From Promethearchaeota archaeon (GTDB lineage Archaea; Asgardarchaeota; Lokiarchaeia; Sigyniarchaeales; SOKP01), in assembly GCA_048940925.1 (NCBI GenBank), contig JBHLOC010000018.1, positions 22,501 through 86,500 of the forward strand: 64,000 nt of DNA, read 5' to 3'. The notes beneath the pieces are model-generated. The model was not told the origin of the DNA and did not search any database. It was given only the letters and a program-made list of their open reading frames with translations. A program made the translations under genes and the position numbers. Below, piece by piece: positions 4,651-27,864 of this stretch. How positions within the stretch are numbered: position 1 is the first letter of the stretch; the number at the start of each line of letters is the position of its first letter.

Positions 4651-5451
4651 ATGCCAAGAGAATATACGTATGGTCCTTTTCAATCAAGGCGATTAGGGCT
4701 CTCATTAGGCGTAAATGTTTTGTCAAATTATAAGTTATGCACTTTCAACTGTGTATATTGCGAGATTGGTTTAACATCTCAAGAACATTATGTGTCTCCA
4801 GAATTTAGAATAAAATTACCACCTTCTTCTAAGTTTAAAAAAGAATTAATTTCAATCTTAAAATATGTGCCTCATATTAATTCAATTACTTTTGGATATA
4901 ATGGTGAACCTACAATAAATGAGAATTTATTAGATTTCTTAGAAATAGCTTCACAGGTAAGAGAAGATTCAAATTGGATAAAAAAGAGACCTATTTTTAC
5001 CTTATTTACTAATTCTAGTACTTTGCATTTCAAAGATATAAGAGAAAGAGTCAAAGAATTTGAACTTGTGTTAGCAAAATTAGATGGCGCAACTAAAGAG
5101 GATTTTAGAAGGACTAATAGACCCCACAGTAAATCACCTGATATTGAAATTATTATTGAATCACTCATTAAACTAAGGCAAAAAATGCCTAAAGGACATA
5201 AATTAGCCATTCAAACTCTAATTTATAATTCCTATAGAGAAGATTTTATTCCAAATAATAATTATTTAAATTTGAACAAGTTAGCTCAAGCTTTAAAGAA
5301 GATTAGGCCTGATTTTATACAGATTTATTCAATAGCAAGAATTCCAGCAGAATATTTTGTCTACGCAATAGATGAAGAGAGAAAAAAAGAAATAGTAAAT
5401 GAATTAAAACTTAAAATTAATGATGAAGATATTAAAATAAATTATTATTAG
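4651..5451 (+). CDS. radical SAM protein
   Basis: YGPFQSRRLGLSLGVN N-terminus, CTFNCVYC cluster motif, GEPT. Confidence 0.9.
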   Translation: MPREYTYGPFQSRRLGLSLGVNVLSNYKLCTFNCVYCEIGLTSQEHYVSPEFRIKLPPSSKFKKELISILKYVPHINSITFGYNGEPTINENLLDFLEIASQVREDSNWIKKRPIFTLFTNSSTLHFKDIRERVKEFELVLAKLDGATKEDFRRTNRPHSKSPDIEIIIESLIKLRQKMPKGHKLAIQTLIYNSYREDFIPNNNYLNLNKLAQALKKIRPDFIQIYSIARIPAEYFVYAIDEERKKEIVNELKLKINDEDIKINYY

Positions 5452-26322: not shown

Positions 26323-26880
26323 TTAGTGTTCTTGCTTTTCGATTTTATCTTTCTTCATTCTTAATAAGTATAAAATTGAACTCACACTCCCGAAAATACC
26401 TTGGATAATTAAGGCTAAAGATATTAATAAAACAGCTAGTAAATCCTTAAAAACAAATAGAAATATAATAATAAAAATTCCAGCTACTGTAAATTTCAAA
26501 ATAGAGGAAAGTTCGCTGAATACAATTTTCCAGCTTTTAGATTCCTTTACTCTCATTTCTAACTCTTCATGATATTTTTCTTCTCCAATTTCTTTTATAT
26601 ACCAGCTCCCTTCTATGTTATTTGCAAAAATTAAAATACTCCACCATAATATAAAGAAACTAAAATAAAAATCTAATGACCCTAATATTATAATAGGTAT
26701 TTGCATTAGAATCATTCCTTTCCAACCTACACGTCTAGCTATTTTGTTTGTTTCTAATTTCAATTCTTTAGAAACATATCTAGTGCTAAGTATATCAAGT
26801 AATCTTCCTATAAATGTTAAAAATGCATTTATCAAATATTGATACCAGTGTACATCACGTATAATTAATTGAAATATCAT
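26323..26880 (-). CDS. hypothetical membrane protein
   Basis: Four to five hydrophobic segments; AGGAG SD. Confidence 0.75.
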   Translation of the reverse strand: MIFQLIIRDVHWYQYLINAFLTFIGRLLDILSTRYVSKELKLETNKIARRVGWKGMILMQIPIIILGSLDFYFSFFILWWSILIFANNIEGSWYIKEIGEEKYHEELEMRVKESKSWKIVFSELSSILKFTVAGIFIIIFLFVFKDLLAVLLISLALIIQGIFGSVSSILYLLRMKKDKIEKQEH

Positions 26881-27035
26881 ATTCTTCAGCTCTCCTTGCG
26901 ATCTTCCTTTTGAATTTAATCTTTTTAATGAAAAACTTTTTTTATTACTCTTTATTCTTCTAACTACACTTTACCAAATAAGTAAAGATTTACATTGTAA
27001 ATAATAGTACTTATTAGATGGTAAAATGTGGTTTT

Positions 27036-27216
27036 ATAACCACATAAATATATAGCATTTTGCTAAGCGCCGGATGTTAAACTTATAAGTGTTGCAGGAT
27101 AGTACTGCAGTTGCGATCTGTGGGAAACCTCAAACTGTGAGTTCGCTCACGGTCATGGCTTTAAAGGATAATACCCGGTCCCATCCGAACCCGGAAACGC
27201 TTATTTATGTGGTTAT
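27036..27216 (+). repeat. inverted repeats and BHB-like processing stem enclosing the permuted 5S gene
   Basis: ATAACCACATAAATA (27036-27050) / TATTTATGTGGTTAT (27202-27216); TAAGCG (27064-27069) / CGCTTA (27198-27203); CCGG (27070-27073) / CCGG (27191-27194). Confidence 0.85.
27076..27196 (+). rRNA. rrf: 5S ribosomal RNA, circularly permuted gene (predicted 121-nt circular product)
   Basis: Canonical 3' half (GTTAAAC...AGTACTGCAG...CTGTGGGAAACC...ACTGTGAG, 27076-27141) precedes the canonical 5' half (CTCACGGTCATGGC...CCCGGTCCCATCCGAACCCGGAA, 27146-27196). Helix I is closed by TTCG. Loop C CCCATCCGAAC and loop E AGTA/GAAA are present. Confidence 0.9.
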
Positions 27217-27312
27217 TAATGACATTAACCTTTTGTTTCTCTAAAAATAAATTTTTATACGATTAATTATAAATCTAATTAATATTTCATAATAAATTAG
27301 CTGAAAACACAT

Positions 27313-27864
27313 ATGCCAAAAAAGTATATAGTTTTCTTTAAAACTATCGGTAGAAAATGGTTTCTATTTCTTATTATTATAATAATTATCGTGGCAATTT
27401 ATAACCCCATAGCTGCAATTTGGATGACTGGCATCACTTTAATATTATTCTTTTTATCTTATATTCCAGGAATATTATTTAAGAAGAAATTGCTCAAATT
27501 TATGAATAAATTTTTTAAAATTGAAGATGAATTAATAGCTCGAACATTAAAGAAACCCTTGAAAAGAATTCAAGAATATATGTTTGATTTTTCTCAAAAA
27601 CAAGATAAAAAGAAATGGTTGATTGTATTTCTAAATAAACAATATATATTTTACCATCAAAAAACCATTCAGGCATTTATGGATCTTTTCAAAAAAGGTT
27701 ATAGTGAGAAAGAAATTCTTGATAATCTAACTGATTACAAAATCGACATTAGAGCTGAGGTTAAAGCAATAAAAGATACTTTAATTAAACTTAAAAGAAT
27801 AAGTGAAAGAGAGATTTCTGTAAAAGAACGTTATGAAAAACAAAGATTTAAATCATCACTTTAG
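27313..27864 (+). CDS. hypothetical membrane protein
   Basis: Two N-terminal TM helices and a basic soluble domain. Confidence 0.75.
   Translation: MPKKYIVFFKTIGRKWFLFLIIIIIIVAIYNPIAAIWMTGITLILFFLSYIPGILFKKKLLKFMNKFFKIEDELIARTLKKPLKRIQEYMFDFSQKQDKKKWLIVFLNKQYIFYHQKTIQAFMDLFKKGYSEKEILDNLTDYKIDIRAEVKAIKDTLIKLKRISEREISVKERYEKQRFKSSL

What the first reader, a model, noticed from the sequence alone, without database searches (positions are those of the whole stretch)
27036..27216. Circularly permuted 5S rRNA gene with a terminal BHB-like motif that would splice it into a 121-nt circle
Seen: every 5S element is present but the halves are swapped. 27076-27141 is the normal 3' half and 27146-27196 the normal 5' half; the usual ends of helix I (ACTGTGAG/CTCACGGT) are joined by TTCG. 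The new ends lie in a stem: TAAGCG/CGCTTA outer helix, AAA bulge (27195-27197), 4-bp CCGG/CCGG central helix, and ATG (27074-27076) on the other strand. The inner side pairs poorly, so it is a relaxed BHB/BHL. Established: the archaeal splicing endonuclease EndA cuts after the 2nd bulge nucleotide, and BHB-driven circularisation rescues permuted SRP RNA in Thermoproteus and permuted tRNAs in Thermofilum. Inference: cuts at 27075|27076 and 27196|27197 plus ligation give ...CCGAACCCGGAA-GUUAAAC..., the conserved helix III/loop B sequence, at 121 nt. The ribosome would then carry a covalently closed 5S rRNA. I know of no described permuted 5S gene, and a linear covariance model could miss or only half-hit it.
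Basis: partly seen in the sequence, partly recalled or inferred. Interest (0 to 1): 0.97.

Follow-up and report, generated by a model that had tools for sequence, protein, structure and literature searches.

The report
Back-to-front 5S rRNA gene, circularised
This Loki-group Asgard archaeon encodes its only 5S ribosomal RNA with the back half first, between tRNA-intron-type cut signals, so a normal 5S can form only by cutting the transcript out and joining its ends into a 121-base ring; this kind of ring is seen in environmental RNA from relatives.

Summary
Observation confirmed; interpretation supported. Window 27076-27196 is a complete 5S rRNA in permuted order: 3' half, UUCG cap on helix I, 5' half. 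It is the only 5S-like locus in the genome.

Rotated, it matches canonical 5S of the sister family end to end (47.7 vs 18.6 bits). All five helices co-vary. The new ends lie in a relaxed bulge-helix-bulge motif. Its outer helix and 4-bp central helix co-vary across 18 relatives.

A model of the permuted core hits 118 of 131 genomes of the family, nearly all once. The sister family (0 of 14) keeps normal genes.

Relatives use two other break points (loop C, loop B) and carry 30-nt inserts at three sites. One rule, cut after the second bulge base, restores the same canonical 5S in every case.

The genome has a catalytic plus a non-catalytic EndA subunit, and RtcB.

Metatranscriptome contigs from three studies bridge the predicted joint and have the size of closed 120-121-nt cycles. 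They come from relatives, not provably this organism.

Not shown: that the ring stays closed in the ribosome.

No paper found describes a permuted archaeal 5S gene. This scan has noted the same thing before in at least 92 other genomes and on this stretch.

The parts
26930..26947 (+). Putative archaeal promoter (BRE/TATA-like GAAAAACTTTTTTTATTA). Relatives have AAAGTTTAATTATTAG at the same place.
   Evidence: Conserved block in the alignment of 33 upstream regions. Promoter function is inferred, not tested.
26971..27024 (+). Conserved structured leader element: a long hairpin (TTACCA-AATAAGTA ... TACTTATT-AGA-TGGTAA) with a 3-nt bulge on its 3' strand. Function unknown.
   Evidence: 14 consensus pairs, 5 of them with compensatory changes. 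In relatives it can also be drawn as a second BHB-like motif. Not resolved.
27036..27049 (+). 5' strand of the 14-bp outer processing stem.
   Evidence: Pairs with 27203-27216. 86% of cells paired across 18 type A genes, 5 pairs with changes on both sides. Present in the MFE fold.
27053..27065 (+). Small leader hairpin (TAGC-ATTTT-GCTA) between the outer stem and the BHB.
   Evidence: All 4 pairs show changes on both sides, 72.5% of cells paired. Type B genes have the equivalent GTAGC-AATTC-GCTAC.
27066..27069 (+). Outer BHB helix h1, 5' strand (AGCG).
   Evidence: Pairs with CGCT 27198-27201. 98.6% paired, 3 of 4 pairs with changes on both sides; examples are AAAATG/CATTTT in L065 and TATCT/AGATA in L071.
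27070..27073 (+). Central 4-bp BHB helix H, leader strand (CCGG). It copies the 5' strand of helix III.
   Evidence: Pairs with 27191-27194. 100% paired in 18 genes. The second pair is CG 13, UG 3, UA 2, and changes together with helix III.
27074..27076 (+). 5' bulge AUG. Predicted cut at 27075|27076.
   Evidence: Cutting after the second bulge base makes the RNA start at G27076 of GUUAAAC. The same register holds in all relatives.
27076..27141 (+). 5S rRNA 3' half: helix II 3' strand, helix V, loop E, helix IV, loop D, helix I 3' strand.
   Evidence: aligns to profile positions 53-115. (co-variation in helices II, IV and V).
27142..27145 (+). UUCG tetraloop that caps helix I where a normal 5S has its two ends.
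   Evidence: The loop is TTCG, TTAG, TTTG, TACG or TCCG in relatives. Helix I is 100% paired with two AU/GC switches. RNA contigs run through it.
27146..27196 (+). 5S rRNA 5' half: helix I 5' strand, loop A, helix II 5' strand, loop B, helix III, loop C.
   Evidence: Rfam positions 26-52 match at 27172-27197. Full alignment after rotation.
27191..27194 (+). Central BHB helix H', which is also the 3' strand of helix III of the mature 5S (CCGG).
27195..27197 (+). 3' bulge AAA. Predicted cut at 27196|27197.
   Evidence: The RNA then ends ...CCCGGAA. Contigs in RNA runs continue from 27196 into GTTAAAC (tables 5c and 7).
27198..27201 (+). Outer BHB helix h1, 3' strand (CGCT).
27203..27216 (+). 3' strand of the outer processing stem.
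27231..27256 (+). T-runs (TTTT, TTT, TTTTT) that may end transcription.
   Evidence: Sequence only. Relatives have similar T-runs after the stem. Inferred.

Best explanation
Window 27076-27196 is the genome's single 5S rRNA gene, encoded in circularly permuted order. It is transcribed with a leader of roughly 110 nt and a short trailer. Leader and trailer pair in three steps: a 14-bp outer stem, a 4-bp helix, and then a 4-bp central helix in which a leader CCGG stands in for the 5' strand of helix III. This presents two 3-nt bulges, a relaxed bulge-helix-bulge. The (alpha-beta)2 splicing endonuclease cuts after the second base of each bulge (27075|27076 and 27196|27197). RtcB joins the 2',3'-cyclic phosphate and 5'-OH ends. 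The product is a 121-nt covalently closed RNA that restores the conserved CCCGGAA-GUUAAAC stretch. Helix III can then re-form, and the RNA has the full 5S fold with helix I capped by UUCG. Shown here: the permutation, that it is the only 5S, conservation and co-variation of the motif, presence of the enzymes, and joint-bridging RNA in kin. Inferred: which enzymes act, and that the ring is the form that sits in the ribosome.
For: There is no Rfam hit at gathering score in the window. The only RF00001 signal in the whole genome is this locus. The rotated sequence aligns end to end with nine canonical 5S genes of the sister family at 49-63% identity. It scores 47.7 bits over profile positions 3-115, against 18.6 bits for the native order. 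For the mature 5S fold, 92.8% of cells are paired against 34-47% for slid controls, and 12 pairs change on both sides. For the precursor fold, 90.9% are paired and 23 pairs change on both sides; h1 is 98.6% paired and the central helix 100%. The permuted-core model R1 hits 118 of 131 family genomes, nearly all once, and none of 14 in the sister family, which has normal genes at 53-69 bits. Break points in loop C (type B) and loop B (type C), plus 17 inserts of 30-31 nt at three sites, all restore the same canonical sequence under the same cut rule. Spliced bodies are 119-122 nt. The genome has one EndA with Tyr/His/Lys kept, a paralog with Tyr to Phe and His to Thr, and RtcB. Asgard EndA is reported as broad-specificity (alpha-beta)2 (PMC5829648). 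In RNA, a 75-nt insert identical to 27097-27171 runs through the UUCG cap. Contigs with 3 differences on 27070-27111 read CCGGTCCCATCCGAAC followed by CCGGAAGTTAAAC. Records in three studies are 150-151 nt with matching ends, which equals a 120-121-nt cycle plus k-1.
Against: The joint-bridging records are assembled contigs from relatives (88-99% alike), not raw reads of this organism. Contigs cannot show ends or amounts. A mixture of type A and type B transcripts could in principle close a de Bruijn cycle. The inner helix of the motif is weak (at most G76-C90, U77-A89, U78-A88), so this is a relaxed motif. The minimum-energy fold pairs the leader CCGG with the other CCGG (27175-78); the BHB conformer is 3.8 kcal/mol less stable. 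Rfam's covariance model could not be run on the rotated sequence. Nothing here shows the RNA inside ribosomes.
Confidence: 0.85

Rival explanations
1. The ring is only an intermediate. After ligation the RNA is re-opened elsewhere, for example in the UUCG cap of helix I as in permuted tRNA maturation, and the ribosome carries a linear 5S.
For: [quoted passage not shown] Contigs cannot show RNA ends.
Against: The cap is a 4-nt tetraloop on a fully paired, co-varying helix, with no spacer to remove. RNA contigs at the highest depths run through it, including a 75-nt adapter-flanked insert identical to the window. Cycle-sized contigs need every 31-mer around the ring to be present.
Confidence: 0.1
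2. The transcript is trimmed but never ligated. The ribosome uses a linear, permuted 5S with its ends at the helix III / loop B side.
For: Permuted 5S rRNAs exist in organelles (PMC4267664).
Against: Contigs in three studies join ...CCCGGAA to GTTAAAC.... The flanks form a splicing-type motif whose register restores the canonical sequence at three different break points. Unligated ends would break a conserved stretch next to helix III.
Confidence: 0.03
3. The locus is a pseudogene or an assembly artefact, and the real 5S gene is unassembled.
For: The genome is a 90-contig draft with 8.4% contamination. rRNA genes are often missing from such bins.
Against: The same arrangement occurs nearly always as a single hit in 118 of 131 independently assembled genomes, including single-contig ones (G006, G023). 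There is compensatory change in every helix. Matching RNA is abundant. No canonical 5S was found in any of the family genomes searched.
Confidence: 0.02

Closest known systems
Permuted, circularised SRP RNA gene of Thermoproteus tenax / T. uzoniensis (Plagens et al. 2015, PMC4731332)
   Same: A universal structured RNA whose gene halves are swapped. The new ends lie in a BHB formed by leader and trailer. A heterotetrameric splicing endonuclease cuts it, RtcB is proposed to ligate it, and the ring is the functional form. It also explained a 'missing' gene.
   Different: Here the RNA is a ribosomal RNA. The trait spans a whole family (118 of 131 genomes), not two species. Break points differ between close relatives, and BHB inserts sit in the same gene. 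Cleavage and protein binding were shown at the bench for the SRP RNA, not here.
Circularly permuted tRNA genes (Cyanidioschyzon merolae, Thermofilum pendens; from my own knowledge, not re-read here)
   Same: 3' half before 5' half, BHB at the new ends, circular RNA made by the tRNA splicing machinery.
   Different: Permuted tRNAs are re-opened at the joined native ends to give a linear tRNA. Here the native ends are joined by a bare tetraloop and no re-opening signal is seen.
BHB-dependent circular pre-16S/pre-23S rRNA, circular 23S in ribosomes, and permuted 23S of Pyrococcus (PMC12918454, PMC7758197)
   Same: A processing stem with a BHB, EndA cleavage and ligation of an rRNA into a ring. 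In some lineages the ring stays in the ribosome.
   Different: Those genes are collinear, and any permutation arises at the RNA level. PMC12918454 states that 5S rRNAs are not processed this way. Here the gene itself is permuted, so ligation is needed to build the fold.
Permuted organellar 5S rRNAs (Valach et al. 2014, PMC4267664)
   Same: 5S rRNA with a rearranged order of its halves, missed by standard models.
   Different: Organellar, with no BHB motif or splicing-endonuclease pathway.
Minor circular forms of canonical 5S rRNA in Halobacterium and Sulfolobus (PMC12558985)
   Same: Covalently circular 5S-derived RNA in archaea.
   Different: Those have variable joints from normal genes and were interpreted as possibly linked to degradation. 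Here there is one fixed joint dictated by the gene.

Membership tests
5S rRNA (Rfam RF00001) | Full-length match to the family model at or above 38 bits | tested here: not met
   In native order only positions 26-52 match, at 22.1 bits. The covariance model cannot be given a rotated sequence with these tools.
5S rRNA (Rfam RF00001) | End-to-end sequence homology to canonical 5S once the halves are put in normal order | tested here: met
   Profile of nine sister-family 5S genes: rotated 47.7 bits over positions 3-115 of 118; native 18.6 bits over 49-115. Alignment.
5S rRNA (Rfam RF00001) | Three-way junction with helices I-V, supported by compensatory change | tested here: met
   37 pairs, 92.8% of cells paired against 34-47% for slid controls, 12 pairs changed on both sides. 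The rotated sequence folds into this shape.
5S rRNA (Rfam RF00001) | Acts as the cell's 5S (only copy, expressed, in ribosomes) | tested here: inconclusive
   It is the only 5S-like locus in the genome, and matching RNA is abundant in metatranscriptomes. Ribosome association is not testable here.
Bulge-helix-bulge (hBHBh') substrate of archaeal splicing endonuclease | Central helix of exactly 4 bp | tested here: met
   27070-73 with 27191-94. 100% paired in 18 genes, with CG/UG/UA at the second pair.
Bulge-helix-bulge (hBHBh') substrate of archaeal splicing endonuclease | A 3-nt bulge on each strand, 3' of its central-helix strand | tested here: met
   AUG 27074-76 and AAA 27195-97. The same geometry holds at type B, type C and all 17 inserts.
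Bulge-helix-bulge (hBHBh') substrate of archaeal splicing endonuclease | Flanking helices on both sides | tested here: inconclusive
   The outer helix is present and co-varies (98.6% paired). The inner helix is at most 3 invariant pairs that compete with helix II, and it is absent in type B. The motif is therefore relaxed (hBH-like). The MFE fold prefers another partner for the leader CCGG by 3.8 kcal/mol.
Bulge-helix-bulge (hBHBh') substrate of archaeal splicing endonuclease | Cleaved by EndA at the two bulges | not testable with these tools
   Indirect only. The cut rule restores canonical sequence at six different sites. The genome has a catalytic and a non-catalytic EndA subunit.
Permuted RNA genes rescued by circularisation (Thermoproteus SRP RNA type) | Gene halves swapped, native ends joined, new ends in a BHB | tested here: met
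Permuted RNA genes rescued by circularisation (Thermoproteus SRP RNA type) | RNA molecules that carry the ligated joint | tested here: inconclusive
   'Goes back' joints occur in runs of three studies, and records have the size and matching ends of 120-121-nt cycles. These are contigs from relatives 88-99% alike, and no raw reads were available.
Permuted RNA genes rescued by circularisation (Thermoproteus SRP RNA type) | Broad-specificity EndA and RtcB ligase present | tested here: met
   PF01974 twice (102 and 70 bits) and PF01139 (556 bits). One EndA keeps Tyr/His/Lys; the other has Phe and Thr at the first two. PMC5829648 reports (alpha-beta)2 EndA with the L1 loop in Asgard.
Organellar permuted 5S rRNA (Valach 2014) | Encoded in a mitochondrial or plastid genome, matured without a BHB | tested here: not met
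   The contig belongs to a 4.8-Mb Promethearchaeota genome, and the ends lie in a BHB.

The most novel reading that the evidence does not exclude
Working ribosomes of this whole Lokiarchaeial family, and probably of many other Asgard lineages that lack a canonical 5S, carry a covalently closed 5S rRNA. In addition, the gene is a hot spot of splicing-dependent rearrangement. The break point has moved at least three times between loop C and the helix III/loop B side among close relatives, and 30-nt BHB inserts come and go at three sites. This is as if a ring-shaped product freed the gene from any fixed start and end. The route could be duplication and deletion, or recombination with copies of the ring; that part is pure conjecture.
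Probability: 0.5. Interest if true: 0.92.

Novelty: new variant of a known kind. Interest (0 to 1): 0.86.

Why it matters
5S rRNA is universal and is taken to be a linear molecule with its ends in helix I. Here a whole family of the archaea closest to eukaryotes can only make it by tRNA-type splicing and ligation. That ties ribosome assembly to EndA/RtcB activity and predicts a ring-shaped rRNA in the large subunit. It also explains why standard annotation reports no 5S gene in these genomes: in a sample of the phylum, only 49 of 151 genomes have a canonical hit. It supplies a natural series (three break points plus introns at three sites) for studying how permuted RNA genes arise. It gives clear, cheap bench tests.

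Tried and rejected
- The Rfam scan at gathering score found nothing, and the E-value scan found only a 27-nt piece.
I substituted a profile HMM of sister-family 5S genes.
- A generic scan for BHB geometry in the AT-rich flanks gave many chance hits. Geometry alone is not evidence; only sites that restore the canonical sequence were counted.
- The RNAfold minimum-energy structure does not show the BHB conformer.
- Model R1 did not detect the type C gene of family f3 or anything in f4, so the spread outside family f1 is not settled here. The f4 hit L022 looks like an unpermuted but odd 5S and was not pursued.
- RNA runs show zero depth on 26990-27069 and 27200-27260 in all four runs. This fits removal of the flanks, but lack of cover in contig data is not counted as evidence.
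- RNAalifold on the upstream leader gave a near-zero energy (-0.51 kcal/mol). The hairpin is conserved but its structure is only weakly supported.

Full report
**1. What is in the sequence**

- 27076-27141 starts GTTAAAC and ends ACTGTGAG. This is the 5S 3' half.
- 27142-27145 is TTCG.
- 27146-27196 starts CTCACGGTCATGG and ends GAACCCGGAA. This is the 5S 5' half.
- The flanks pair in three steps: a 14-bp stem (27036-49 with 27203-16), AGCG/CGCT (27066-69 with 27198-201), and CCGG/CCGG (27070-73 with 27191-94).
- ATG (27074-76) and AAA (27195-97) are left unpaired on opposite strands.
- A small hairpin (27053-65) sits in the leader.
- The only ORF across the locus is a 51-codon GTG frame (27089-27244). 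I take it as chance.

**2. It is a 5S rRNA, and the only one**

- Rfam finds nothing at gathering score in the window. At permissive settings it finds only model positions 26-52 (22.1 bits).
- That is also the only RF00001 signal in the 4.8-Mb genome.
- Putting the halves in normal order gives a 121-nt sequence that aligns end to end with nine canonical 5S genes of the sister family at 49-63% identity. It folds into the three-way junction.
- A profile HMM of those nine genes scores the rotated form 47.7 bits over positions 3-115 of 118. The native order scores 18.6 bits, for the 3' half only.
- On 18 distinct type A genes, the mature 5S fold has 92.8% of cells paired, against 34-47% for slid controls. 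Twelve pairs change on both sides.

**3. The processing motif**

- On the same alignment the precursor fold has 90.9% of cells paired (slid controls 34-46%) and 23 pairs with changes on both sides.
- The outer BHB helix is 98.6% paired and is fully replaced in some genes: AAAATG/CATTTT in L065, TATCT/AGATA in L071.
- The central helix is paired in every gene. Where helix III changes from CCGG/CCGG to CTGG/CCAG (L042, L071), the leader copy changes with it.
- Each strand reads outer helix, 4-bp helix, 3-nt bulge. This is the layout of archaeal splice sites as I recall it, with the cut after the second bulge base. The layout and rule come from my own knowledge. The comparative data below test them.
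- The inner helix is at most three invariant pairs, so the motif is relaxed.
- The minimum-energy fold keeps the stems but pairs the leader CCGG with the other CCGG at 27175-78. Forcing the BHB costs 3.8 kcal/mol.

**4. Relatives**

- Record titles identify the lineage as Promethearchaeota (Loki group).
- A covariance model of the shared permuted core (R1) hits 118 of 131 genomes of the window's family, in 12 of 13 genera. Nearly every genome has a single hit; two have a second, partial one. It hits none of 14 genomes in the sister family.
- The sister family has ordinary 5S genes at 53-69 bits, including three in tandem in a single-contig genome.
- The family contains a second arrangement, type B. 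Its break is in loop C (...ACCCGGTC | CCATCCGAAC...) and its flanks are GCG-CTGG-AA|C and CCGG-TC|A-CGC.
- A third arrangement, type C, occurs in another family of the order. Its break is in loop B, with flanks CGC-CCGA-AA|A and TCGG-AA|A-GCG. The body is 121 nt.
- Sixteen genes carry one or two inserts of 30-31 nt, at three sites. In window terms the sites are 27116|27117, 27189|27190 and 27184|27185. Each insert is bounded by a 4-bp helix and two 3-nt bulges.
- In every case, cutting after the second bulge base gives the same canonical 5S. Spliced bodies are 119-122 nt. Six sites obeying one register cannot be chance.
- On a tree of the 103-nt core, the A/B label needs four changes, and three are forced by well-supported branches. 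This is a short gene tree, so take it as a lead.

**5. Enzymes**

- The genome has two PF01974 genes and one RtcB gene.
- The 198-aa EndA is most like the Aeropyrum pernix chain 3P1Z_B. It keeps Tyr, His and Lys at the positions that I recall as the catalytic triad.
- In the alignment to the Methanocaldococcus jannaschii enzyme, the 200-aa paralog has Phe and Thr at the first two of these positions.
- This fits an (alpha-beta)2 enzyme. PMC5829648 reports that type for Asgard archaea and lists it among the types able to cut non-canonical motifs.

**6. RNA**

Seven metatranscriptome runs share words with the locus. Four, from four studies, were laid on it. All are assembled contigs, so they cannot show RNA ends or amounts.
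- X1 holds a 75-nt adapter-flanked insert identical to 27097-27171. It runs through the UUCG cap.
- X1 also holds two contigs (depth 90 and 185) with three differences on 27070-27111. Upstream they read CCGGTCCCATCCGAAC, so they cross both the type B and the type A break points.
- 'Goes back' joints link 27194/27196 to GTTAAAC... in X1 and X2. X4 has a similar joint from a CCCAG-type relative.
- From tables 5, 7 and 8, X1 record 4 (150 nt), X2 record 9 (150 nt) and X3 record 16 (151 nt) each go once around a 120-121-nt sequence and repeat their first 30 bases at the end.
- That is what a k=31 assembler gives for a closed cycle. This reading is my inference, and the k value comes from my recollection of how these contigs are built.
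- A sequence that crosses the cap and both break points is not collinear with a canonical, type A or type B gene.
- Caveats: the records are 88-99% alike to the window, so they come from kin. A mix of type A and type B transcripts could in principle close such a cycle.

**7. Surroundings**

- The locus lies in a 432-nt gap between a minus-strand ORF (26323-26880) and a plus-strand ORF (27313-27864). No other rRNA gene is in the window.
- Upstream there is a conserved BRE/TATA-like block (26930-47) and a conserved leader hairpin (26971-27024) with a 3-nt bulge.
- In relatives the hairpin can also be drawn as a BHB-like motif. I could not settle that.
- T-runs follow the outer stem.

**8. Mechanism and rivals**

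The best reading is transcription of about 275 nt, formation of the leader-trailer stem, EndA cuts at 27075|27076 and 27196|27197, and RtcB ligation to a 121-nt ring. Helix III then re-forms once the leader copy has gone.
- A re-opened ring is the main rival. I put it at about 0.1, because the cap is a bare tetraloop on a co-varying helix and RNA contigs run through it.
- An unligated permuted 5S, and a pseudogene or artefact, are unlikely (see the Rival explanations section).

**9. Known or new**

- The mechanism is that of the permuted SRP RNA of Thermoproteus (PMC4731332) and of permuted tRNAs.
- Ring-shaped and permuted 23S rRNAs are known (PMC12918454, PMC7758197). Permuted 5S rRNAs are known in organelles (PMC4267664). 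Minor 5S circles occur in Halobacterium and Sulfolobus (PMC12558985).
- Seven full-text searches found no paper on a permuted archaeal 5S gene. PMC12918454 states that 5S is not processed by circularisation.
- This scan has noted the same thing on this stretch and in at least 92 other genomes. I treated those notes as leads.
- My own phylum sample shows a canonical 5S in only 49 of 151 Asgard genomes.
- What this report adds for the Loki group: the family-wide count, three break points, the inserts, retention of normal genes in the sister family, and the co-variation of the leader with helix III.

Noticed in passing
L012-L017, L019-L021, L023-L025, L027, L028, L030 and others (for example L017:1434-1632): Type B genes in the same genus. 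The 5S is permuted at a different point (loop C, ...ACCCGGTC|CCATCC...), with flanks GCG-CTGG-AA|C and CCGG-TC|A-CGC. There are 25 distinct genes. Rfam aligns their leader plus 3' half as a false full-length 5S at 23-32 bits.
   Followed up: yes
L011 (G026, another family of the order), minus strand around the RF00001 hit: Type C. This is a GC-richer 5S gene permuted in loop B, with helix I closed by a 7-nt loop and flanks CGC-CCGA-AA|A and TCGG-AA|A-GCG. The body is 121 nt.
   Followed up: partly
L013, L015, L018, L026, L028, L030, L033, L038, L040, L054, L058, L065, L066, L068, L072, L076: Inserts of 30-31 nt lie inside the 5S gene at three sites (helix IV/loop D and two places in loop C). 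Each has a 4-bp helix and two 3-nt bulges, and excision restores the canonical sequence. L033 has two. I know of no described 5S rRNA introns of this kind.
   Followed up: yes
window 26971-27024; alignment A4: A conserved structured leader element lies between the putative promoter and the processing stem. It has an invariant AAATAACCG-like stretch in most relatives and a 3-nt bulge. In relatives it can be drawn as a second BHB-like motif that would release about 33-37 nt.
   Followed up: partly
L046 (CAZRKO010000109.1, near the contig end): Only the helix I cap and the 5S 5' half with a type B 3' flank are present. The upstream sequence is unrelated. This could be a remnant, a split gene or a chimeric contig.
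   Followed up: no
G115:C109:4504-4606 and 5308-5382: One family genome has a second, partial hit to the permuted-core model about 700 nt from the first.
   Followed up: no
L004 (G032:C1:1399892-1400758): A single-contig genome of the sister family has three canonical 5S genes in tandem, about 375 nt apart. This contrasts with the single permuted copy in the window's family.
   Followed up: no
record titles (L039, L040, L043, L055, L057, L063, L069, L074, L075): Several contigs with near-identical Loki-type permuted 5S genes are deposited under the names Hermod-, Hod-, Thor- or Odinarchaeota. The submitters' labels probably do not reflect the lineage.
   Followed up: no
window 27070-27073 vs 27175-27178 and 27191-27194: The leader CCGG can pair with either CCGG of helix III. 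The thermodynamic optimum uses the wrong one for splicing. In type B genes that other CCGG is the one used.
   Followed up: partly
L022 (G031, family f4): An apparently unpermuted 5S-like gene has a normal 5' half but an unrecognisable helix IV/V arm (28.6 bits). The other three f4 genomes gave no 5S hit with either model.
   Followed up: no
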